Positions 7,232 to 53,846 are shown, counted from the first letter of the stretch. The stretch: 64,000 nucleotides of DNA from Escherichia coli (GCF_002854065.1 NZ_CP024147.1), one strand, 5' to 3'. The notes: generated by a model not told the origin, from the sequence alone. Numbers and translations are program-made.

Positions 7232-8238
7232 ATAATATCCAACTCGCCCACGGCAGCGGCGGCCAGGCGATGCAGCAATTAATCAACAGCCTGTTTTTGG
7301 AAGCCTTTGCCAACCCGTGGCTGGCAGAGCAGGAAGATCAGGCACGTCTTGATCTGGCGCAACTGATAGCGGAAGGCGACCGTCTGGCGTTCTCCACCGA
7401 CAGTTACGTTATTGACCCGCTGTTCTTCCCTGGCGGTAATATCGGCAAGCTGGCGATTTGCGGCACAGCCAATGACGTTGCGGTCAGTGGTGCCATTCCG
7501 CGCTATCTCTCCTGTGGCTTTATCCTCGAAGAAGGATTGCCGATGGAGACACTGAAAGCCGTAGTGACCAGCATGGCAGAAACCGCCCGCACGGCAGGCA
7601 TTGCCATCGTTACTGGCGATACTAAAGTGGTGCAGCGCGGCGCGGCAGATAAACTGTTTATCAACACCGCGGGCATGGGCGCAATTCCGGTGAATATTCA
7701 CTGGGGCGCACAGACGCTAACCGCAGGCGATGTATTGCTGGTTAGCGGTACACTCGGCGACCACGGGGCGACTATCCTTAACCTGCGTGAGCAGCTGGGG
7801 CTGGATGGCGAACTGGTCAGCGACTGCGCGGTGCTGACGCCCCTTATTCAGACGCTGCGTGACATTCCCGGCGTGAAAGCGCTGCGTGATGCCACCCGTG
7901 GTGGTGTAAACGCGGTGGTTCATGAGTTCGCGGCAGCCTGCGGTTGCGGTATTGAAATTTCTGAATCAGCGCTGCCGGTTAAACCTGCCGTGCGCGGCGT
8001 TTGCGAATTGCTGGGACTGGACGCCCTGAACTTTGCCAACGAAGGCAAACTGGTGATCGCCGTTGAACGCAACGCGGCAGAGCAAGTGCTGGCAGCGTTA
8101 CATTCCCATCCACTGGGGAAAGACGCGGCGCTGATTGGTGAAGTGGTGGAACGTAAAGGTGTTCGTCTTGCCGGTCTGTATGGCGTGAAACGAACCCTCG
8201 ATTTACCACACGCCGAACCGCTTCCGCGTATATGCTAA
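7228..8238 (+). CDS. hypE: Hydrogenase maturation protein HypE
   Basis: 336-aa ORF, AIR-synthase-like, overlaps hypD stop. Confidence 0.9.
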   Translation: MNNIQLAHGSGGQAMQQLINSLFLEAFANPWLAEQEDQARLDLAQLIAEGDRLAFSTDSYVIDPLFFPGGNIGKLAICGTANDVAVSGAIPRYLSCGFILEEGLPMETLKAVVTSMAETARTAGIAIVTGDTKVVQRGAADKLFINTAGMGAIPVNIHWGAQTLTAGDVLLVSGTLGDHGATILNLREQLGLDGELVSDCAVLTPLIQTLRDIPGVKALRDATRGGVNAVVHEFAAACGCGIEISESALPVKPAVRGVCELLGLDALNFANEGKLVIAVERNAAEQVLAALHSHPLGKDAALIGEVVERKGVRLAGLYGVKRTLDLPHAEPLPRIC

Positions 8239-14906: not shown

Positions 14907-15704
14907 TTATTCATTTTTCGCTACCAGCAAAGAGAGATCCTGCTTCGCCAGCGCGCGACTGGCACTCTCCGGCAAACCGTCGTCTGTAATAATCTGATCA
15001 AACTCGCTTAATGGTAACGCCAGCCATGTCGCCACCTGACCATATTTCGTCGCATCACAGACCAAAACTCGCTGGCGGCTGGCACTGGCAATCGCCCGTT
15101 TCACCGTGACTTTATCTTCCGCTGGCGTAGAAATCCCCCGCAAACTCCATGACGATGCAGAAATAAAAGCCTGATCAATCATCAGGCTGCGCAGCATGGT
15201 CGCAGCGGCTTCCCCGACACAGGAACGGTTTTCCCGACACACTGCACCGCCAGTGTGAATAATTGTGCAATTACTGTTGTCGAGCAAGTAGTCCGCAATA
15301 ACGAAATCGTTTGTGACCACAGTCAGTGACTCCATGTGAATCAGATGCTGTGCTATCGCTAACGTGGTCGTTCCCGCATCCAGATAGATACAACTTCCCG
15401 GCTGAACAAGACTTGCCGCCAGCTTGCCAATAGCCGCTTTTTGCGTCATTGCCAGCGCAGTTTTTACCTGATGAGAAGGTTCATGCGCCACGCGTCCCGG
15501 AGACTGGACGCCTCCGGATACCAGCACAACGGCTCCCTGCTGCTCCAGTTTTTGTAAATCCCGACGAATGGTCATATGTGACACATTCATTCTGTCCGTT
15601 AGTTCAGCAATACTGACAATGCCTTTTTCAGCTACCATCTCAAGGATGATTTGGCGACGCTCTACGGGTATCAACTTTTGCTCCTTCCTTTGTCCTGCTG
15701 ACAT
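14907..15704 (-). CDS. ygbI: DeoR-family transcriptional regulator YgbI
   Basis: 265-aa ORF, N-terminal HTH and DeoR C-terminal sugar-binding fold; exact start uncertain. Confidence 0.8.
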   Translation of the reverse strand: MSAGQRKEQKLIPVERRQIILEMVAEKGIVSIAELTDRMNVSHMTIRRDLQKLEQQGAVVLVSGGVQSPGRVAHEPSHQVKTALAMTQKAAIGKLAASLVQPGSCIYLDAGTTTLAIAQHLIHMESLTVVTNDFVIADYLLDNSNCTIIHTGGAVCRENRSCVGEAAATMLRSLMIDQAFISASSWSLRGISTPAEDKVTVKRAIASASRQRVLVCDATKYGQVATWLALPLSEFDQIITDDGLPESASRALAKQDLSLLVAKNE

Positions 15705-15869
15705 TCTACGCTATTTGCCTGCGAAACGTGCGCGGCGCAACTAACGCTTAGTTCACATAAAATAACACACAATGTTAATTTTTGTGAATCAGCTCACCAT
15801 ATCGTTATCTTCCAGCGCTTATATTCACAATATCAAACAAAATATCACTTAAATTAACAATGAGAGCAG

Positions 15870-16777
15870 ATGAAAACGGGATCTAGTTTCATGTCGGTAT
15901 CGTTGGCTTAGGGTCAATGGGAATGGGAGCAGCACTGTCATGTGTCCGCGCAGGTCTTTCTACCTGGGGCGCAGACCTGAACAGCAATGCCTGCGCTACG
16001 TTGAAAGAGGCAGGTGCTTGCGGGGTTTCTGATAACGCCGCGACGTTTGCCGAAAAACTGGACGCTCTGCTGGTGCTGGTGGTCAATGCGGCCCAGGTTA
16101 AACAGGTGCTGTTTGGTGAAACAGGCGTTGCACAACATCTGAAACCCGGTACGGCAGTAATGGTTTCTTCCACTATCGCTAGTGCTGATGCGCAAGAAAT
16201 TGCTACCGCTCTGGCTGGATTCGATCTGGAAATGCTGGATGCGCCAGTTTCTGGTGGTGCAGTAAAAGCCGCTAACGGTGAAATGACTGTCATGGCCTCC
16301 GGTAGCGATATTGCCTTTGAACGACTGGCACCCGTGCTGGAAGCCGTTGCCGGAAAAGTTTATCGCATAGGTGCAGAACCGGGACTAGGTTCGACCGTAA
16401 AAATTATTCACCAGTTGTTAGCGGGCGTACATATTGCTGCCGGAGCCGAAGCGATGGCACTTGCAGCCCGTGCGGGGATCCCGCTGGATGTGATGTATGA
16501 CGTCGTGACCAATGCCGCCGGAAATTCCTGGATGTTCGAAAACCGGATGCGTCATGTGGTGGATGGCGATTACACCCCGCATTCAGCCGTCGATATTTTT
16601 GTTAAGGATCTTGGTCTGGTTGCCGATACAGCCAAAGCCCTGCACTTCCCGCTGCCATTGGCCTCAACAGCATTGAATATGTTCACCAGCGCCAGTAACG
16701 CGGGTTACGGGAAAGAAGACGATAGCGCAGTTATCAAGATTTTCTCTGGCATCACTCTACCGGGAGCGAAATCATGA
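15870..16777 (+). pseudogene. ygbJ: L-threonate dehydrogenase-like gene with a frameshift at codon 6
   Basis: ATG at 15870 reads MKTGS then hits TAG at 15909; FHVGIVGLGSMG Rossmann motif continues in another frame directly after a TAG. Confidence 0.6.
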
Positions 16778-18036
16778 TCAAGATTGGCGTTATCGCCGAT
16801 GATTTTACCGGCGCGACGGATATCGCCAGTTTTCTGGTGGAAAACGGTCTACCAACGGTACAAATTAACGGTGTTCCAACAGGTAAAATGCCGGAAGCAA
16901 TCGACGCACTGGTGATCAGCCTGAAAACGCGTTCCTGTCCGGTGGTTGAAGCCACACAGCAATCGCTGGCGGCTCTGAGCTGGTTGCAACAGCAAGGTTG
17001 CAAACAGATCTATTTCAAATACTGCTCTACTTTCGACAGTACGGCTAAAGGTAATATCGGCCCGGTTACCGATGCATTAATGGATGCTCTCGACACGCCG
17101 TTTACGGTCTTCTCTCCGGCCCTGCCGGTCAACGGACGTACGGTTTATCAGGGGTATTTGTTCGTAATGAATCAACTGCTGGCCGAATCCGGGATGCGCC
17201 ATCACCCGGTAAATCCCATGACCGACAGCTATCTTCCCCGTCTGGTTGAAGCGCAATCCACAGGGCGCTGCGGCGTCGTTTCGGCACATGTTTTCGAACA
17301 AGGTGTGGATGCCGTTCGTCAAGAGCTGGCTCGCTTACAGCAAGAGGGCTACCGCTACGCGGTGCTTGATGCGCTGACCGAACACCATCTGGAAATTCAG
17401 GGAGAAGCCTTGCGCGATGCCCCACTGGTAACGGGCGGTTCTGGTCTGGCGATTGGCCTGGCCCGGCAGTGGGCGCAAGAAAACGGTAACCAGGCTCGCA
17501 AAGCAGGGCATCCGCTCGCTGGGCGCGGCGTAGTGCTCTCCGGTTCATGCTCTCAAATGACCAACCGCCAGGTGGCACATTACCGTCAAATTGCACCAGC
17601 CCGTGAAGTTGATGTGGCACGCTGCCTCTCAATTGAAACTCTGGCCGCTTATGCACACGAACTGGCAGAGTGGGTTCTGGGCCAGGAAAGTGTACTTGCT
17701 CCACTGGTTTTTGCCACCGCCAGCACTGACGCATTGGCAGCAATTCAACAGCAATACGGTGCACAAAAAGCCAGTCAGGCAGTAGAAACACTGTTTTCTC
17801 AACTAGCGGCGCGGTTAGCAGCGGAAGGCGTGACACGCTTTATTGTCGCAGGCGGTGAGACCTCCGGCGTAGTCACACAGAGCCTGGGAATAAAAGGGTT
17901 TCATATTGGCCCAACCATTTCCCCCGGCGTGCCGTGGGTAAACGCACTGGATAAGCCTGTCTCACTCGCCCTTAAATCTGGCAACTTCGGTGATGAAGCC
18001 TTTTTTTCACGAGCCCAAAGAGAGTTTTTATCATGA
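16774..18036 (+). CDS. ygbK: 3-oxo-tetronate kinase (DUF1537 family)
   Basis: 420-aa ORF starting MIKIGVIADDFTGATD; overlaps ygbJ stop and ygbL start. Confidence 0.8.
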   Translation: MIKIGVIADDFTGATDIASFLVENGLPTVQINGVPTGKMPEAIDALVISLKTRSCPVVEATQQSLAALSWLQQQGCKQIYFKYCSTFDSTAKGNIGPVTDALMDALDTPFTVFSPALPVNGRTVYQGYLFVMNQLLAESGMRHHPVNPMTDSYLPRLVEAQSTGRCGVVSAHVFEQGVDAVRQELARLQQEGYRYAVLDALTEHHLEIQGEALRDAPLVTGGSGLAIGLARQWAQENGNQARKAGHPLAGRGVVLSGSCSQMTNRQVAHYRQIAPAREVDVARCLSIETLAAYAHELAEWVLGQESVLAPLVFATASTDALAAIQQQYGAQKASQAVETLFSQLAARLAAEGVTRFIVAGGETSGVVTQSLGIKGFHIGPTISPGVPWVNALDKPVSLALKSGNFGDEAFFSRAQREFLS

Positions 18037-18671
18037 GCGATTTCGCAAAAGTAGAGCAGTCTTTGCGAGAGGAGATGACGCGGATTGCCAGTTCATTCTT
18101 TCAGCGCGGCTATGCAACCGGTTCGGCTGGCAATCTGTCGCTGCTTTTACCTGACGGGAATTTACTGGCGACACCGACAGGTTCATGCCTGGGCAATCTC
18201 GAGCCGCAGCGGCTTTCCAAAGTCGCCGCGGATGGCGAATGGTTAAGTGGTGACAAACCCTCGAAAGAGGTGCTCTTTCATCTGGCGCTGTATCGCAACA
18301 ATCCGCGCTGTAAAGCGGTGGTGCATTTGCACAGCACATGGTCGACGGCGCTTTCCTGCCTGCAAGGGCTGGACAGCAGCAACGTTATTCGTCCGTTCAC
18401 ACCATACGTGGTGATGCGGATGGGAAATGTCCCGCTGGTGCCTTATTACCGACCGGGCGATAAACGCATCGCACAGGATCTGGCGGAACTGGCAGCAGAC
18501 AATCAGGCTTTTTTACTGGCAAATCATGGCCCAGTGGTTTGCGGTGAAAGCCTGCAAGAAGCCGCCAACAATATGGAAGAGCTGGAGGAAACGGCAAAGC
18601 TGATTTTTATTCTCGGTGACCGCCCGATCCGTTATCTGACCGCAGGTGAAATTGCGGAATTAAGGAATTAA
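18033..18671 (+). CDS. ygbL: Class II aldolase/adducin-family decarboxylase
   Basis: 212-aa ORF, aldolase-II fold signature, operon context. Confidence 0.8.
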
Positions 18672-18675
18672 TGCA

Positions 18676-19452
18676 ATGCCTCGTTTTGCAGCTAATTTAT
18701 CCATGATGTTCACCGAAGTGCCTTTTATTGAACGCTTCGCCGCAGCGCGAAAAGCCGGGTTCGATGCTGTGGAATTTCTGTTTCCCTATAACTACTCCAC
18801 CCTGCAAATCCAAAAGCAACTGGAGCAAAACCATCTGACACTGGCGCTGTTCAATACCGCTCCCGGAGATATTAATGCGGGGGAATGGGGATTATCCGCC
18901 CTTCCCGGACGTGAGCACGAAGCACACGCAGACATCGACCTGGCACTGGAATATGCATTGGCGCTCAATTGTGAACAAGTCCATGTAATGGCAGGCGTCG
19001 TGCCCGCTGCCGAAGATGCTGAACGGTACCGGGCAGTATTTATCGATAATCTCCGCTACGCTGCCGACCGCTTTGCGCCACACGGCAAGCGAATATTAGT
19101 TGAAGCACTCAGCCCCGGCATTAAGCCTCATTATCTCTTCTCCAGCCAGTATCAGGCACTGGCTATTGTTGAAGAAGTTGCGCGAGATAACGTGTTTATT
19201 CAACTAGATACTTTTCATGCGCAAAAAGTAGATGGCAACCTGACGCATTTAATCCGCGACTACGCCGGGAAATATGCGCACGTACAAATTGCCGGACTAC
19301 CTGATCGACATGAACCGGACGATGGAGAAATCAACTATCCGTGGCTGTTCCGCCTGTTCGATGAGGTGGGATATCAGGGCTGGATCGGTTGTGAATATAA
19401 ACCTCGTGGCCTCACCGAAGAAGGACTTGGCTGGTTTGACGCCTGGCGCTAA
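18676..19452 (+). CDS. ygbM: Hydroxypyruvate-isomerase-like TIM-barrel isomerase
   Basis: 258-aa ORF, xylose-isomerase-like TIM barrel. Confidence 0.8.
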
Positions 19453-19540
19453 TTCGTTAAATCCCTAATTACAACGTACCCATACATCCCCCCATCTACG
19501 GATGGGGTAGGTTAACTATAACTTTCAGACAGGGTTTCCC

Positions 19541-20836
19541 ATGTCCACAATTACATTGTTATGCATTGCGTTAACTGGCGTAATCATGCTGTTGCTGCTG
19601 GTCATCAAGGCAAAGGTACAACCATTCGTTGCTCTGCTCCTCGTCAGCCTGTTAGTCGCACTTGCGGCGGGTATACCGGCGGGCGAAGTGGGTAAAGTGA
19701 TGATCGCCGGGATGGGCGGTGTGCTTGGTTCCGTCACTATTATTATTGGTCTGGGCGCTATGCTGGGGCGTATGATCGAACACTCTGGTGGTGCAGAGTC
19801 ACTGGCTAATTATTTCAGTCGCAAGTTAGGTGACAAACGAACTATCGCTGCGCTGACTCTGGCAGCGTTCTTCCTCGGTATTCCCGTCTTCTTTGATGTC
19901 GGCTTTATTATTCTTGCGCCAATCATTTACGGTTTTGCCAAGGTTGCCAAAATATCGCCACTCAAATTTGGCCTGCCTGTCGCTGGGATCATGCTAACTG
20001 TACATGTGGCGGTACCGCCGCATCCAGGCCCTGTCGCCGCAGCAGGGTTACTCCACGCAGACATCGGCTGGCTAACCATCATCGGTATTGCGATTTCTAT
20101 TCCCGTAGGGATTGTTGGCTACTTTGCAGCGAAAATAATCAATAAGCGCCAATATGCGATGTCGGTGGAAGTACTGGAACAGATGCAACTGGCTCCGGCC
20201 AGTGAGGAAGGCGCGACAAAATTAAGCGATAAAATAAATCCACCGGGCGTCGCGCTGGTCACCTCGCTAATTGTTATTCCTATCGCGATTATCATGGCGG
20301 GTACGGTTTCCGCAACACTGATGCCGCCTTCGCATCCCCTGCTTGGTACGCTACAGCTGATCGGCTCACCAATGGTAGCTCTAATGATTGCGCTGGTGCT
20401 GGCATTCTGGTTATTGGCTTTACGTCGCGGCTGGAGCTTACAACACACCAGCGACATTATGGGCTCAGCGCTTCCTACTGCGGCGGTAGTGATTTTGGTT
20501 ACTGGTGCTGGAGGGGTATTTGGCAAAGTGCTGGTGGAATCGGGCGTCGGCAAAGCCCTTGCCAACATGTTACAAATGATTGACCTGCCTCTGTTACCAG
20601 CCGCATTTATTATTTCACTGGCGCTGCGTGCATCGCAGGGGTCAGCAACCGTAGCAATACTGACAACCGGCGGGTTACTCTCAGAAGCGGTGATGGGATT
20701 GAATCCGATTCAGTGCGTATTGGTGACGCTGGCAGCCTGCTTTGGTGGGCTTGGTGCGTCACATATTAATGACTCAGGGTTCTGGATTGTGACCAAATAT
20801 CTGGGATTGTCGGTAGCAGACGGTCTGAAAACCTAG
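19541..20836 (+). CDS. ygbN: GntP-family permease, truncated by premature amber codon
   Basis: 431-aa ORF ends at TAG 20834-20836; same frame continues 22 hydrophobic codons (TVLTTILGFTGFLITWCVWAVI) to TGA at 20903-20905. Confidence 0.8.
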   Translation: MSTITLLCIALTGVIMLLLLVIKAKVQPFVALLLVSLLVALAAGIPAGEVGKVMIAGMGGVLGSVTIIIGLGAMLGRMIEHSGGAESLANYFSRKLGDKRTIAALTLAAFFLGIPVFFDVGFIILAPIIYGFAKVAKISPLKFGLPVAGIMLTVHVAVPPHPGPVAAAGLLHADIGWLTIIGIAISIPVGIVGYFAAKIINKRQYAMSVEVLEQMQLAPASEEGATKLSDKINPPGVALVTSLIVIPIAIIMAGTVSATLMPPSHPLLGTLQLIGSPMVALMIALVLAFWLLALRRGWSLQHTSDIMGSALPTAAVVILVTGAGGVFGKVLVESGVGKALANMLQMIDLPLLPAAFIISLALRASQGSATVAILTTGGLLSEAVMGLNPIQCVLVTLAACFGGLGASHINDSGFWIVTKYLGLSVADGLKT

Positions 20837-20913
20837 ACAGTGTTAACGACCATTCTCGGTTTTACCGGATTCTTAATTACCTGGTGCGTATGGGCGGTAA
20901 TTTGACCTTAATA

Positions 20914-20946
20914 AAAAGGTCCGATGAGCATCGGACCTTTTATTTA
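20914..20946. terminator. Bidirectional intrinsic terminator between ygbN and ecdD
   Basis: Perfect hairpin aaaaggtccgatg-agc-atcggacctttt flanked by A-run and T-run. Confidence 0.45.
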
Positions 20947-33656: not shown

Positions 33657-33907
33657 AACCGTTCCTTTGCAATACCGCTATTTTCTTGCCATCAGATGTT
33701 TCGACTATAGGGAGCGTAAGAGAACGAATGAAATTACCAATTAGAATGAGTAGTTCCTTAACGGAATAACGATTTGGCAAAGCTAATATCAAAAAGTGCT
33801 TAAGGCACCGGATTTCGGGCGTTTAGGAAGATTTGAAATTGTTTTAGCGCAGCGGCAGTTTCATACTATGGCGGTAAAAAAATTTGCATGGTATTTAAGG
33901 ACTCACT

Positions 33908-34945
33908 ATGTTTTCCGCATTGCGCCACCGTACCGCTGCCCTGGCGCTCGGCGTATGCTTTATTCTCCCCGTACACGCCTCGTCACCTAAACCTGGCGAT
34001 TTTGCTAATACCCAGGCACGACATATTGCTACTTTCTTTCCGGGACGCATGACCGGAACTCCTGCAGAAATGTTATCTGCCGATTATATTCGCCAACAGT
34101 TTCAGCAAATGGGTTATCGCAGTGATATTCGGACATTTAATAGTCGGTATATTTATACCGCCCGCGATAATCGCAAGAGCTGGCATAACGTGACGGGAAG
34201 TACGGTGATTGCCGCTCATGAAGGCAAAGCGCCGCAGCAGATCATCATTATGGCGCATCTGGATACTTACGCCCCGCTGAGCGATGCTGACGCCGATGCC
34301 AATCTCGGCGGGCTGACGTTACAAGGAATGGATGATAACGCCGCAGGTTTAGGTGTCATGCTGGAATTGGCAGAACGCCTGAAAAATACGCCTACCGAGT
34401 ATGGTATTCGATTTGTGGCGACCAGCGGCGAAGAGGAAGGGAAATTAGGCGCTGAGAATTTACTCAAGCGGATGAGTGACACCGAAAAGAAAAATACGCT
34501 GCTGGTGATTAATCTCGATAACTTAATTGTTGGCGATAAATTGTATTTCAACAGCGGTGTAAAAACCCCTGAAGCAGTAAGGAAATTAACGCGCGACAGG
34601 GCGCTGGCAATTGCGCGTAGTCATGGAATTGCCGCAACGACCAATCCGGGTTTGAATAAAAATTATCCGAAAGGCACTGGGTGTTGTAATGACGCAGAAA
34701 TATTCGACAAAGCGGGCATTGCTGTACTTTCGGTGGAAGCGACTAACTGGAATCTTGGGAATAAGGATGGTTATCAGCAACGCGCAAAAACAGCCGCATT
34801 CCCTGCGGGAAATAGCTGGCATGACGTAAGACTGGATAATCAACAGCATATTGATAAGGCACTTCCAGGAAGAATAGAACGTCGCTGCCGTGACGTTATG
34901 CGGATAATGCTACCACTGGTGAAGGAGCTGGCGAAGGCGTCTTGA
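33908..34945 (+). CDS. iap: Alkaline phosphatase isozyme conversion aminopeptidase
   Basis: 345-aa ORF with signal peptide and M28 peptidase features. Confidence 0.85.
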   Translation: MFSALRHRTAALALGVCFILPVHASSPKPGDFANTQARHIATFFPGRMTGTPAEMLSADYIRQQFQQMGYRSDIRTFNSRYIYTARDNRKSWHNVTGSTVIAAHEGKAPQQIIIMAHLDTYAPLSDADADANLGGLTLQGMDDNAAGLGVMLELAERLKNTPTEYGIRFVATSGEEEGKLGAENLLKRMSDTEKKNTLLVINLDNLIVGDKLYFNSGVKTPEAVRKLTRDRALAIARSHGIAATTNPGLNKNYPKGTGCCNDAEIFDKAGIAVLSVEATNWNLGNKDGYQQRAKTAAFPAGNSWHDVRLDNQQHIDKALPGRIERRCRDVMRIMLPLVKELAKAS

Positions 34946-35070
34946 TGGGTTTGAAATGATGACTCCCGTGCCTGCAGGAAATCAATGCCACCTGAAACAG
35001 AGAATAAAAAAGGGTGCAGGAGGCCAAACCATCACAATTCAATACGCGGGGTTTTACCCCCGCGTGGTGG

Positions 35071-35223
35071 CTACTTCTTCGATTCGTAAGCGAGAACTGC
35101 CTTAAACTCCATACCACGCTCTCTGATACTCAACTCACATAACGAGTCGCCTACCATGAGCGTGAATCCCAGTACTGTACAACACAGTACTATGATTGCC
35201 ACAAGGGCATATTTTGTTAGCAT
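35071..35223 (-). CDS. Hok-family type I toxin (hokX-like), intact 50-aa ORF
   Basis: [50 protein letters not shown]: TM helix plus conserved SLCEL...LAYES C-terminus; GGGAGG SD 6 nt upstream. Confidence 0.75.
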
Positions 35224-35430
35224 GTCTTGCCTCCCTGCAAAGAAGAGACTAACATCCGAATTGCTACGTTCGAACGCGAGCCTCAGGTTGATAGAAATAT
35301 CGCCTGGGGCTTTTGTCCATCTGGAACCTCGCGAATGCTTAACGCCAGACAGCCTCAAGCACCCGACGCCATTCTATACCTGATAATTCTTCCAGCGGCG
35401 TTCACGTTTAAAATCAGGAATGCTGCTCGC

Positions 35431-35470
35431 AAAATAAAAACGCCCCCATCATTTCTGACAGAGGCGTTTA
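35431..35470 (-). terminator. Likely cysJIH operon terminator
   Basis: Minus strand hairpin (aacgcctc...gggggcgtt) followed by TTTTTATTTT just downstream of cysH stop. Confidence 0.4.
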
Positions 35471-35486
35471 ATTTATCCGGCAATAT

Positions 35487-36221
35487 TTACCCTTCGTGTA
35501 ACCCACATTCCCTTTTTAAGCCAAAGAAACGCGTTTCTTCTTCCGCCATGCCGGGTTCCCATTTACGGGTTGTATGGGTATCGCCCACCGATAAATATCC
35601 TTCGTCCCATAATGGGTGATATTTCAGGCCATGTTTTTGCAGGTACTGATAAATAGTTCGGTTATCCCAGTCGATAATCGGCAGCACTTTAAATACGCCA
35701 CGCTGAATTGCCAGCACCGGTAAATTGGCGCGGCTGCCGGATTGTTCACGGCGCAGGCCAGCAAACCAGGTTTGCGCATTCAGTTCTTTTAGCGCCCGGT
35801 TCATCGGTTCGACTTTGTTGATGTCATTGTACTTTTCAATGCCTTCAACGCCCTGTTCCCACAGTTTTCCGTAGCGTGCTTCCTGCCAGGCTGCGCTTTC
35901 GGTAGCACGGTACACTTTCAGGTTGAGCTTGAGTTTGTCCGTTAACTCGTCAATAAAGCGGTAGGTTTCCGGGAACAAGTAACCGGTATCGGTGAGGATC
36001 ACTGGAATATCCGGGCGAATCTGATTCACCAGATGCAGGCTCACCGCCGCCTGAATGCCGAAGCTGGAAGAAAGCACATATTCACCGGGCAGATTATCCA
36101 GCGCCCAGGCTACGCGGCCTTCAGCGTCCAGTTTTTCCAGTTGGGCGTTAGTTTCCGCCAGCGCCAGAATGCGATCTACCTTCGGCAGTTCGTTCAGGGC
36201 GTTTAGATCGAGTTTGGACAT
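35487..36221 (-). CDS. cysH: Phosphoadenosine phosphosulfate reductase
   Basis: Start at [12 protein letters not shown] inside longer ORF; 244 aa; C-terminal ECGLH motif. Confidence 0.9.
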
Positions 36222-52520: not shown

Positions 52521-52692
52521 ATGAAAAAGGATTTAAACATGCTCAGGATATTCATCGTAATTATATTTATTTTCAATTTATCAGGCTGTGGATATAACGA
52601 TATTCAAACCTATGATGAGCAGGTTAACGCCTCCTGGTCTGAGGTATTAAATCAATATCAACGTCGCGCCGATCTTATTCCTAATCTTGTCG
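52521..52692 (+). pseudogene. LemA-family lipoprotein gene, 5' fragment truncated by IS1
   Basis: AAGGA RBS; MKKDLNMLRIFIVIIFIFNLSGCGYN... with LSGC lipobox; reading frame runs into IS1 left end after 57 codons. Confidence 0.6.
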
Positions 52693-52747
52693 GGTGATGC
52701 TGCCAACTTACTGATTTAGTGTATGATGGTGTTTTTGAGGTGCTCCA

Positions 52748-53023
52748 GTGGCTTCTGTTTCTATCAGCTGTCCCTCCTGTTCAGCTACTGACGGGGTGGT
52801 GCGTAACGGCAAAAGCACTGCCGGACATCAGCGCTATCTCTGCTCTCACTGCCGTAAAACATGGCAACTGCAGTTCACTTACACCGCTTCTCAACCCGGT
52901 ACGCACCAGAAAATCATTGATATGGCCATGAATGGCGTTGGATGCCGGGCAACCGCCCGCATTATGGGCGTTGGCCTCAACACGATTTTCCGCCATTTAA
53001 AAAACTCAGGCCGCAGTCGGTAA
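52748..53023 (+). CDS. insA: IS1 InsA
   Basis: 91 aa [21 protein letters not shown]..., GTG start. Confidence 0.9.
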
Positions 53024-53445
53024 CCTCGCGCATACAGCCGGGCAGTGACGTCATCGTCTGCGCGGAAATGGACGAACAGTGGGGATACGTCGGGGCTAAA
53101 TCGCGCCAGCGCTGGCTGTTTTACGCGTATGACAGGCTCCGGAAGACGGTTGTTGCGCACGTATTCGGTGAACGCACTATGGCGACGCTGGGGCGTCTTA
53201 TGAGCCTGCTGTCACCCTTTGACGTGGTGATATGGATGACGGATGGCTGGCCGCTGTATGAATCCCGCCTGAAGGGAAAGCTGCACGTAATCAGCAAGCG
53301 ATATACGCAGCGAATTGAGCGGCATAACCTGAATCTGAGGCAGCACCTGGCACGGCTGGGACGGAAGTCGCTGTCGTTCTCAAAATCGGTGGAGCTGCAT
53401 GACAAAGTCATCGGGCATTATCTGAACATAAAACACTATCAATAA
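52942..53445 (+). CDS. insB: IS1 InsB (transposase C-terminal part, expressed as InsAB' by -1 frameshift)
   Basis: 167-aa ORF in -1 frame relative to insA, recognised IS1 InsB. Confidence 0.85.
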
Positions 53446-53462
53446 GTTGGAGTCATTACCTG

Positions 53463-53846
53463 ATGCTGGCCCCAAAAAATAAAAACGCTAAAGTGAAAAA
53501 ACAAAAGAAGACTCCGCAGGTTCGTGAATCAGGACGAAATTCATTGTTTGTCGTGATGCTGATAATTATTGTGGGATGGTGCCTGGTGTTCGCCAGTATT
53601 AAAGATATTGCATTCATCTCAACAATTATTGGGTTAATTGATCATTTTATCGGTCCAATAACCATTGCTGGCATCGTTCTGCTGATCATTGTGGCCAAAT
53701 TTACTGGCAATCTTAAGCTGGGATCAGGAGAAAAAAGCAACAGGAAAACGGGGAATCGTAATGCTCACTCTCGCTCTTCGTCGAGAAATTCTTTCCGCGG
53801 TGGTGGCGGTTCTTCAGGAGGCGGCGGTTCATCCGGCCGTTGGTGA
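53463..53846 (+). pseudogene. 3' fragment of a TPM-domain/YgcG-like membrane protein gene, lacking its 5' end
   Basis: Begins immediately after IS1 right end; two TM helices and GGGGSSGGGGSSGRW tail paralogous to ygcG C-terminus. Confidence 0.5.

What the first reader, a model, noticed from the sequence alone, without database searches (positions are those of the whole stretch)
14907..20905. Two independent lesions in one catabolic cluster suggest pathway decay
The ygbI-ygbN cluster is established as the L-threonate/D-erythronate utilisation locus (regulator, dehydrogenase, kinase, decarboxylase, isomerase, permease). In this window both the dehydrogenase (frameshift) and the permease (amber) are damaged, while every other gene in the 64 kb has its expected length. 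Two hits in a six-gene cluster look like relaxed selection on this pathway rather than random sequencing error.
Basis: inference. Interest (0 to 1): 0.5.

Follow-up and report, generated by a model that had tools for sequence, protein, structure and literature searches.

The report
Two lesions in E. coli threonate operon
An E. coli strain carries two knock-out mutations in its non-essential L-threonate sugar-acid operon: an older one inherited by a whole lineage, and a newer one seen only in this assembly. This is ordinary gene decay in a cluster that E. coli often damages or loses.

Summary
Both lesions are in the sequence. ltnD (ygbJ) lacks one G in codon 6, between window 15884 and 15885, and stops after 13 residues. 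ygbN has TGG→TAG at codon 432 of 454 (20834-20836).

The amber is real and inherited. It is annotated as an internal stop in two complete genomes, and the exact 431-aa product occurs on 176 public contigs, including MEGAHIT- and SPAdes-named (short-read-style) contigs. It lies at a Dcm site (CCTGG→CCTAG), the classic 5-methylcytosine deamination hotspot, and also occurs on a second haplotype.

The frameshift is private. None of 4,586 complete genomes has it, nor do two relatives that differ from the window by 1-2 SNPs over 14 kb. It is the only indel against the sister strain in 62 kb and sits next to a GATC site, so I cannot separate a recent mutation from an assembly error.

"Relaxed selection after permease loss" is plausible but not shown:
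- The chance of co-location is about 0.06-0.07.
- Every other amber carrier examined keeps the other five genes intact.
- The nonsynonymous:synonymous ratio equals that of flanking genes.

The cluster is damaged or absent in many E. coli regardless of ygbN, K-12 included. The claim that every other gene in the window is intact is wrong.

The parts
14907..15674 (-). ygbI, a DeoR-family repressor of the cluster. It is intact at 255 aa; the longest ORF runs on to 15704.
   Evidence: NCBIfam NF040890 trans_reg_YgbI, 485 bits against a cut-off of 400. Same protein allele as in CUWW06, 100416 and TUM13936. Repressor role shown in K-12: PMC8464067.
15675..15869 (.). Divergent ygbI-ltnD control region. 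It contains the ltnD Shine-Dalgarno variant AAGGAG→AATGAG (T at 15861).
   Evidence: The T variant is shared with CUWW06 and five other amber carriers, but not with 100416, L009, L010 or L013. It occurs in 29 of 4,506 complete genomes, and CP53 and MDP9-27 carry it with intact clusters. Predicted anti-SD duplex weakens from -8.5 to -4.5 kcal/mol.
15870..16777 (+). ltnD (ygbJ), L-threonate dehydrogenase, a pseudogene in this assembly. A 1-nt deletion between 15884 and 15885 (codon 6) leads to a stop at 15909-15911. The only in-frame restart is ATG 15917 (Met17), which loses beta-1 and the first two glycines of the GLGSMG NAD-binding loop.
   Evidence: The intact allele scores 473.6 bits on NF043037 ThreonDh. 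The N-terminus FHVGIVGLGSMGMGAA aligns to solved homologue 3g0o. The deletion is absent from 4,586 complete genomes.
16774..18036 (+). otnK (ygbK), 3-oxo-tetronate kinase. Intact at 420 aa; overlaps ltnD and otnC by 4 nt each.
   Evidence: NF043035, 599 bits. K-12 has a 1-nt deletion at the position equivalent to window 17925, giving 388 aa.
18033..18671 (+). [quoted passage not shown] Intact at 212 aa, with a derived S212N change at 18667.
   Evidence: NF043034, 333 bits. S212N is shared with the sub-lineage that carries the SD variant.
18676..19452 (+). otnI (ygbM), 2-oxo-tetronate isomerase (TIM barrel). Intact at 258 aa.
   Evidence: NF043033, 394.6 bits. Pfam AP_endonuc_2 in the gene tables.
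19541..20905 (+). ygbN, a GntP-family permease and a pseudogene. TGG→TAG at 20834-20836 (Trp432) removes the last 23 residues, WTVLTTILGFTGFLITWCVWAVI, which form the final hydrophobic transmembrane-length segment.
   Evidence: Annotated 'internal stop' in CUWW06 and 100416. Pfam GntP_permease covers residues 5-453 and NCBIfam PRK09821 covers 1-454 of the intact protein. Mean Kyte-Doolittle hydropathy of 432-454 is 1.76. The wild-type context CCTGG is a Dcm site.
20914..20945 (.). GC-rich hairpin flanked by A and T runs, lying between the convergent genes ygbN and ecdD. Probably a bidirectional terminator.
   Evidence: Read directly from the sequence (AAAAGGTCCGATG-AG-CATCGGACCTTTT). The simple scanner did not list it.

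Best explanation
This is ordinary, stepwise pseudogenisation of a dispensable accessory operon.

Step 1 (shown). In an ancestor of a widely distributed E. coli lineage, Trp432 of the permease YgbN became an amber codon. The change is G→A at the position paired with the methylated cytosine of a Dcm site, CCTGG→CCTAG. That is the signature of 5-methylcytosine deamination.

Step 1 consequence (inferred). The mutation removes the last transmembrane segment, which is conserved across the GntP family, and so probably abolishes or cripples uptake.

Step 2 (shown in the sequence, not verified in reads). The strain behind this window later lost one G in codon 6 of ltnD. Translation stops after 13 residues. 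It can resume only at Met17, five bases after the new stop. That would give an LtnD without beta-1 and half of the NAD-binding glycine loop, which I infer to be inactive. Because the restart is so close, polarity on otnK, otnC and otnI may be small.

Net effect. The strain should be unable to take up L-threonate and oxidise it to 2-oxo-tetronate.

Background. The cluster is under weak or patchy selection across E. coli as a whole. A second hit here is therefore unsurprising and need not be a consequence of the first.
For: - Lesions.
- The amber is inherited. It is in CUWW06 (Thailand, wastewater) and 100416 (Gambia, stool), 2 of 4,598 complete genomes. The exact 431-aa product is on 176 contigs, in 257 blocks of the collection, including MEGAHIT- and SPAdes-named metagenome contigs.
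- Hotspot: the Dcm context is confirmed, and W432 is one of nine codons in the cluster that 5mC deamination would turn into amber.
- Recurrence: the same amber sits on a second haplotype, L013. That haplotype has 35 differences, including SNPs 26-29 nt upstream and 92 nt downstream of the site.
- The C-terminal segment belongs to the conserved family domain.
- The frameshift is plausibly real. Against CUWW06 the window shows 10 SNPs and only this 1 indel in 62 kb, so the assembly is not indel-prone.
- The cluster is generally dispensable:
  - Absent from about 15% of complete genomes. This is the known 'o454-negative' pattern of the mutS-rpoS mosaic region (PMC4209514).
  - K-12-type otnK frameshift in 371 of 4,579 genomes.
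  - otnI::IS5 in FDAARGOS_943.
  - Four other independent ltnD 5' knock-outs in strains with intact ygbN.
Against: - The frameshift has no independent confirmation. It is absent from all complete genomes, from every other amber-lineage locus, and from the two nearest relatives that share the derived EcdD A52E allele.
- It is not in a homopolymer. It lies 2 nt from a GATC Dam site, a context where I recall long-read consensus errors being reported.
- Strain C51 has a +T indel in the same GATC. That could point to a real hotspot or to a recurrent artefact.
- Loss of function of YgbN(1-431) is inferred, not tested. The allele has spread widely, and every other amber carrier examined keeps the other five genes intact. 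That is also what one would see if the truncated permease still worked, or if the lineage is simply too young to have decayed.
Confidence: 0.55

Rival explanations
1. Only one lesion is real. The ygbN amber is a genuine lineage marker. The ltnD 1-nt deletion is a consensus or assembly error, for example a methylation-associated long-read error at the adjacent Dam site.
For: - The deletion is a singleton: 0 of 4,586 complete genomes.
- It is absent in relatives 1-2 SNPs away over 14.2 kb and in all other amber carriers.
- It is outside any homopolymer and 2 nt from GATC.
- Another complete assembly, C51, has an indel inside the same GATC.
- The window spans an IS1 copy at which the related draft contig JAPQBK010000019.1 ends. 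This suggests the window comes from a long-read or hybrid assembly.
Against: - It is the only indel in 62 kb against CUWW06, next to 10 substitutions. That is roughly the indel-to-substitution proportion I would expect for real mutations (from my own knowledge of mutation-accumulation studies, not tested here).
- By my estimate the window holds a few hundred other GATC sites (not counted here), and none of them shows an error.
- Real 5' knock-outs of ltnD exist elsewhere: a nonsense codon seen in 4 assemblies, a 20-bp deletion, and a second nonsense codon.
Confidence: 0.3
2. Loss of the pathway is selected, not neutral. Inactivating YgbN or the operon would be advantageous in some niche, for example by avoiding uptake of a toxic analogue or the cost of expression. 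That would explain the recurrence and wide spread of the amber and the repeated hits on ltnD.
For: - The same amber occurs on two haplotypes.
- The amber lineage is geographically wide and has been sampled often.
- There are at least five independent lesions in the first 16 codons of ltnD.
- Within the amber lineage, mutations cluster in otnC (5 of 14 events, P = 0.011) and in the ygbI-ltnD control region (3 of 14, P = 0.009).
Against: - The Dcm hotspot by itself explains the recurrence.
- My ltnD look-up could only find lesions upstream of Met17, so the apparent clustering there is an ascertainment artefact.
- The enrichment tests are post hoc and partly rest on metagenome contigs.
- The repressor YgbI keeps the operon silent in K-12, so expression cost should be small.
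- Most E. coli keep the cluster intact.
Confidence: 0.07
3. The amber is not a functional lesion. YgbN lacking its last 23 residues still transports, or another carrier supplies the substrate. In that case the pathway was working until the ltnD frameshift, which would be the only effective hit.
For: - The amber is near the C-terminus (95% of the protein is retained).
- The allele has persisted on at least 176 contigs, and the other five genes are full length in all other carriers examined.
Against: - The deleted segment is a complete hydrophobic transmembrane-length helix.
- It lies inside the Pfam and NCBIfam family models. The GntT, GntP and DsdX paralogue profiles also align almost to its end.
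- The lineage differs internally by well under 0.1% in this region (about 0.02% between the window and CUWW06). Intact neighbouring genes are therefore expected even under complete neutrality.
Confidence: 0.15

Closest known systems
Four-step L-threonate catabolic cluster LtnD / OtnI / OtnK / OtnC (Zhang et al. 2016, PNAS 113:E4161, as summarised in PMC12994016 and PMC12506659); E. coli K-12 ygbI-ygbJKLMN
   Same: Same six genes in the same order. Every product scores above the NCBIfam equivalog cut-off. The region is 99.3% identical in DNA to K-12.
   Different: Here ltnD is frameshifted and ygbN is truncated. K-12 instead carries a frameshift at the 3' end of otnK. No D-erythronate dehydrogenase is present, so only the L-threonate branch applies. 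In K-12 the only reported phenotype is growth on L-tartrate or m-tartrate after loss of ygbI (PMC8464067, PMC6452873).
Amber hotspots from 5-methylcytosine deamination at Dcm sites (CCWGG), as described for lacI by Coulondre, Miller, Farabaugh and Gilbert in 1978 (recalled from my own knowledge)
   Same: CCTGG→CCTAG is exactly a G→A change opposite the methylated inner cytosine, and it creates TAG. It is seen on two haplotypes.
   Different: The lacI cases were CAG→TAG on the coding strand. Here the event is on the opposite strand (TGG→TAG). Dcm activity of this strain was not checked.
Mosaic mutS-rpoS (o454-nlpD) region of E. coli
   Same: The window has the 'pattern IV' arrangement: o454/ygbN, then the kpd/ecd decarboxylase genes D, C and B, then a slyA/MarR-like regulator, then rpoS (PMC4209514). 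Loss of o454 and of the whole ygb block is a known lineage polymorphism.
   Different: The published polymorphisms are presence or absence of blocks. Here the block is present but carries point lesions.

Membership tests
L-threonate catabolic cluster (LtnD, OtnI, OtnK, OtnC) | An L-threonate 2-dehydrogenase of the beta-hydroxyacid dehydrogenase family | tested here: met
   The intact sister allele scores 473.6 bits on NF043037 (cut-off 350). In the window itself the gene is frameshifted.
L-threonate catabolic cluster (LtnD, OtnI, OtnK, OtnC) | A DUF1537 3-oxo-tetronate kinase, a class II aldolase-type decarboxylase and a TIM-barrel isomerase encoded side by side | tested here: met
   NF043035 599 bits, NF043034 333 bits and NF043033 394.6 bits, all above their cut-offs. 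The genes are contiguous or overlapping.
L-threonate catabolic cluster (LtnD, OtnI, OtnK, OtnC) | Growth on L-threonate that depends on these genes in this organism | not testable with these tools
   I found no E. coli growth data on L-threonate. K-12 annotation still says 'putative'.
   All six genes are accounted for by other equivalogs, and no further ORF of gene size lies between ygbI and ygbN. The rest of the genome was not searched.
GntP-family permease | Full-length match to the GntP_permease domain, including the C-terminal helix | tested here: not met
   The intact allele matches Pfam PF02447 over residues 5-453 and PRK09821 over 1-454. The window's product ends at residue 431.
Dcm / 5-methylcytosine deamination hotspot mutation | A transition at the inner C:G pair of CCWGG | tested here: met
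   Wild type AACCTGGAC, window AACCTAGAC.
Dcm / 5-methylcytosine deamination hotspot mutation | Independent recurrence of the same change | tested here: inconclusive
   L013 carries the change on a different haplotype, with flanking SNPs at -29, -26 and +92 nt. A very short gene-conversion tract cannot be excluded.
Dcm / 5-methylcytosine deamination hotspot mutation | The strain has an active Dcm methylase | not tested
   dcm does not lie in the window.
Pathway decay under relaxed selection | An excess of disruptive or nonsynonymous changes in the cluster after the first hit, relative to controls | tested here: inconclusive
   Only the window, out of about a dozen fetched amber-carrier loci, has a second disruptive lesion. 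The nonsynonymous:synonymous ratio is 5:3 in the cluster and 5:4 in the flanks. Co-location has P = 0.063-0.072.

The most novel reading that the evidence does not exclude
A globally distributed commensal E. coli lineage has been caught in the middle of silencing an operon step by step. First came a hotspot-driven, recurrent and possibly selected amber in the permease. Then came a mutation that weakens the Shine-Dalgarno sequence of the first gene, together with a cluster of amino-acid changes in otnC. Finally came a frameshift in the first enzyme. On this reading the order of events reveals how loss of uptake releases the downstream enzymes from selection.
Probability: 0.1. Interest if true: 0.35.

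Novelty: already known. Interest (0 to 1): 0.15.

Why it matters
The consequences are modest.
- It predicts a simple phenotype: this strain, and probably its whole lineage, should not use L-threonate.
- It gives a textbook natural example of a Dcm-hotspot amber mutation spreading in the wild.
- It shows that automated annotation can hide 5' frameshifts by calling a shorter "normal" protein.
- It also shows that the laboratory reference K-12 carries its own lesion in this cluster. That matters to anyone using K-12 to study the pathway.

Tried and rejected
- Source assembly. I tried to identify it through alleles specific to the window. EcdD A52E is on 9 contigs and YgcE G310D on 2. The tool collapses similar places, so I could not read the ltnD site of the closest draft (GCA_035821435.1, contig JAPQBK010000019.1) or of the >1-Mb contig.
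- The 286-aa LtnD restart product. None of the places shown from the 23 longest contigs read has the window's haplotype or a truncated ygbN. Many hits are contig-end artefacts (L020-L025).
- Nonsynonymous:synonymous comparison as a test of relaxed selection. There are too few changes, and the ratio equals that of flanking genes.
- The Shine-Dalgarno variant as a third lesion. It weakens pairing, but it also occurs in 28 other complete genomes, and in the two I opened the cluster is intact. I therefore do not count it as a lesion.
- Solved structures for the permease. No GntP-family relative is detectable by sequence in the PDB copy.
- The promoter and terminator scan of the cluster gave counts no higher than shuffled sequence.
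- Zhang et al. 2016 (PMC4961189) is not held in the library. I cite it only through papers that summarise it.


Full report
**What the region is.** The window is Escherichia coli. The stretch 14500-21500 matches 5,412 of 5,426 complete RefSeq E. coli genomes, and the best match is strain CUWW06. Positions 14907-20905 hold the divergent repressor gene ygbI and the genes ltnD(ygbJ)-otnK(ygbK)-otnC(ygbL)-otnI(ygbM)-ygbN. All six products, using intact sister alleles for the two damaged genes, score above the curated NCBIfam equivalog cut-offs:
- YgbI repressor
- L-threonate dehydrogenase
- 3-oxo-tetronate kinase
- 2-oxo-tetronate isomerase
- a GntP-family transporter

The pathway runs L-threonate → 2-oxo-tetronate → 3-oxo-tetronate → its 4-phosphate → DHAP. 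It is the four-step route of Zhang et al. 2016, as summarised in PMC12994016 and PMC12506659. In K-12 the products are still annotated "putative". The only E. coli phenotype I found is growth on tartrate once the repressor YgbI is lost (PMC8464067; PMC6452873).

**The two lesions.**
- ltnD: CUWW06 reads ATGAAAACGGGATCTGAGTTT and the window reads ATGAAAACGGGATCT-AGTTT. One G is missing between 15884 and 15885, in codon 6. The reading frame ends after MKTGSSFMSVSLA.
- The deletion itself creates a TAG in the downstream frame. The first possible restart is therefore ATG 15917, Met17. A product starting there lacks FHVGIVGLGS, that is, beta-1 and the first two glycines of the GLGSMG dinucleotide-binding loop. 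This stretch aligns residue for residue with the solved close homologue 3g0o. I infer that such a protein is inactive.
- The restart lies five bases after the new stop and has a weak SD-like AGGG. Re-initiation is therefore plausible, and polarity on otnK and otnC, which overlap their upstream genes by 4 nt, may be limited. This is inference.
- ygbN: TAG at 20834-20836 replaces TGG (Trp432 of 454). The lost tail WTVLTTILGFTGFLITWCVWAVI is a complete hydrophobic segment of transmembrane length. It lies inside the Pfam GntP_permease model (residues 5-453) and inside the NCBIfam models of YgbN and its paralogues. Loss or severe impairment of transport is likely but untested. No sequence-detectable GntP relative has a solved structure.

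**The amber is old, real and at a hotspot.**
- Exactly two of 4,598 complete genomes share it: CUWW06 (wastewater, Thailand) and 100416 (human stool, Gambia). PGAP annotates ygbN as a pseudogene with an internal stop in both.
- The exact 431-aa product is recorded on 176 contigs, in 257 blocks of the public collection. These include contigs with MEGAHIT- and SPAdes-style names and GenBank entries such as EZJ84098.1 and KEO30873.1. It cannot be a sequencing error.
- The nearest genome with an intact ygbN is TUM13936, 99.8% identical across the cluster.
- The wild-type context is CCTGG, a Dcm site. The G→A change lies opposite the methylated inner cytosine. This is the classical 5-methylcytosine deamination route to amber codons, which I recall from the lacI hotspot work of 1978.
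- W432 is one of two such codons in ygbN and one of nine in the cluster.
- In line with a hotspot, locus L013 carries the same amber on a different haplotype. It has 35 differences in 6 kb, including SNPs 26-29 nt upstream and 92 nt downstream of the site. A very short conversion tract cannot be excluded.

**The frameshift is private.**
- None of 4,586 complete genomes carrying this segment matches the window across the deletion.
- All ten other amber-carrying loci I fetched have GATCTGAG.
- The window has a derived EcdD A52E allele that is found on only nine contigs. Two of these, L029 (Logan ERR10376543) and L030 (GCA_036586365.1), differ from the window by 1-2 substitutions over 14.2 kb, and both have an intact ltnD.
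- The window's YgcE G310D allele occurs on only two contigs, one of them in GCA_035821435.1. I could not read the ltnD site of that contig.

Against CUWW06 the window shows 10 substitutions, this single indel, a missing IS1 copy and a 1.9-kb deletion beside another IS1, over 62 kb. The assembly is therefore not indel-prone, and one indel per ten substitutions is about what I would expect for real mutations. On the other hand, the deleted base is not in a homopolymer and lies 2 nt from a GATC Dam site, a context I recall being associated with long-read consensus errors. A second complete assembly, strain C51, has a +T indel inside the same GATC. I put the chance that the frameshift is real at roughly 60-70%.

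**Is this relaxed selection on the pathway?** The evidence is weak in both directions.
- If two coding lesions were placed at random in this window, they would share a directon with P = 0.063. A second lesion would hit one of the other five ygb genes with P = 0.072. Neither figure is corrected for post-hoc choice.
- Among amber carriers, only the window has a second disruptive lesion. The rest keep ygbI (255 aa), ltnD (302), otnK (420), otnC (212) and otnI (258).
- Within the amber lineage the cluster shows 5 nonsynonymous and 3 synonymous changes. The flanking genes, window against CUWW06, show 5 and 4. There is no difference.
- The lineage is very young, well under 0.1% divergence in this region. 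Intact neighbouring genes are expected whether or not selection has been relaxed.
- Two post-hoc enrichments are worth noting and no more. Five of 14 mutational events fall in otnC (P = 0.011): G54D, G112R, V127A, S212N and one synonymous change. Three of 14 fall in the 195-bp control region (P = 0.009).

**The cluster is fragile in E. coli generally.**
- About 15% of complete genomes lack it. This corresponds to the known o454-negative pattern of the mosaic mutS-rpoS region (PMC4209514). The window itself has the "pattern IV" arrangement.
- K-12 carries a 1-nt deletion near the 3' end of otnK. Its product is 388 aa and ends ...ISPACRG, instead of 420 aa, and so lacks the end of the family model. 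Another 370 complete genomes share the deletion, 371 of 4,579 in all.
- FDAARGOS_943 has IS5 in otnI.
- Four other independent lesions hit the first 16 codons of ltnD in strains whose ygbN is intact: GGA→TGA at codon 4, +T in codon 5, a 20-bp deletion, and TCA→TAA at codon 16.

A second hit in this operon is therefore unremarkable and does not need the first hit as its cause.

**The claim about the rest of the window.** It is not correct that every other gene has its expected length. An IS1 interrupts a LemA-family gene (fragment 52521-52697, IS1 about 52748-53445). An adjacent 1.9-kb deletion relative to CUWW06 removes or truncates TPM-domain genes, leaving a fragment at 53463-53846.

**Verdict.** The amber is a genuine, already-annotated lineage marker with a clear mutational mechanism. 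The frameshift is an unverified singleton. Together they most likely make this strain unable to use L-threonate. This is ordinary decay of an accessory operon that E. coli frequently damages or loses, not a demonstrated case of selection being relaxed by the first hit. Novelty is nil at the level of mechanism, and interest is low.

Noticed in passing
window 17925 (otnK); K-12 locus L026 about 4487: E. coli K-12 MG1655 carries a 1-nt deletion near the 3' end of otnK/ygbK. Its product is 388 aa (ending ...ISPACRG*) instead of 420 aa, and a 91-nt gap opens before ygbL. The exact K-12 61-mer is in 371 of 4,579 complete genomes; the rest have the extra base. The reference strain may therefore itself be defective in this pathway.
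   Followed up: partly
window 15861: The Shine-Dalgarno sequence of ltnD is AATGAG instead of AAGGAG, and the predicted anti-SD duplex weakens from -8.5 to -4.5 kcal/mol. The variant is rare (29 of 4,506 complete genomes) but occurs on at least three haplotypes, including CP53 and MDP9-27, whose clusters are intact. Within the amber lineage it marks a sub-lineage together with OtnC S212N (18667).
   Followed up: partly
L033 (NZ_CP127306.1, strain C51) 18035-18895: PGAP annotates a 5'-frameshifted ltnD (+T in codon 5) as a normal 286-aa 'L-threonate dehydrogenase' (WP_101969498.1) that starts at Met17. It does not flag a pseudogene. Lesions this close to a gene's 5' end can therefore be hidden in public annotation.
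   Followed up: yes
L016, L017, L018, L019 (ltnD 5' ends); L020-L025: There are independent knock-outs in the first 16 codons of ltnD in strains with intact ygbN: GGA→TGA at codon 4, +T in codon 5, a 20-bp deletion of codons 10-16, and TCA→TAA at codon 16. Several draft contigs (L020-L025) begin within codons 2-3 of ltnD, which suggests an IS insertion or another repeat at that point.
   Followed up: partly
L013 (Logan SRR10830771) 7250-7400, equivalent to window 20806-20927: The same W432 amber lies on a clearly different ygb haplotype (35 differences in 6 kb, with flanking SNPs within 30 nt and 92 nt). This points to recurrent mutation at the Dcm hotspot or to a very short conversion tract.
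   Followed up: partly
window 18033-18671 (otnC) and 15675-15869: Within the amber lineage, 5 of 14 mutational events fall in otnC (G54D, G112R, V127A, S212N and one synonymous change; P = 0.011). Three of 14 fall in the ygbI-ltnD control region (P = 0.009). The tests are post hoc and partly rest on metagenome contigs.
   Followed up: partly
window 52521-53846: An IS1 sits inside a LemA-family gene. Directly after it, 1.9 kb present in CUWW06 is missing, which removes the LemA C-terminus and one TPM-domain gene and truncates a second. Conversely, CUWW06 has an extra IS1 in the SDR gene (near window 48030) that the window lacks.
   Followed up: partly
window 18676-19452 (otnI/ygbM): RefSeq names this TIM-barrel isomerase 'HPr family phosphocarrier protein'. 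The reason is that NCBIfam NF007441 (PRK09989) outscores the OtnI equivalog, 583 bits against 395. This looks like a mislabelled family name.
   Followed up: no
window about 33900-35500 (iap to cysH): In the transferred CUWW06 annotation, only a hok/gef family gene lies between iap and cysH. As I recall, K-12 has its type I-E CRISPR-Cas locus there. I did not check for residual repeats.
   Followed up: no
L005 (strain 100416) 201-1634: In the other complete genome that carries the amber, the neighbouring gene pphB is split by an IS1 insertion.
   Followed up: no
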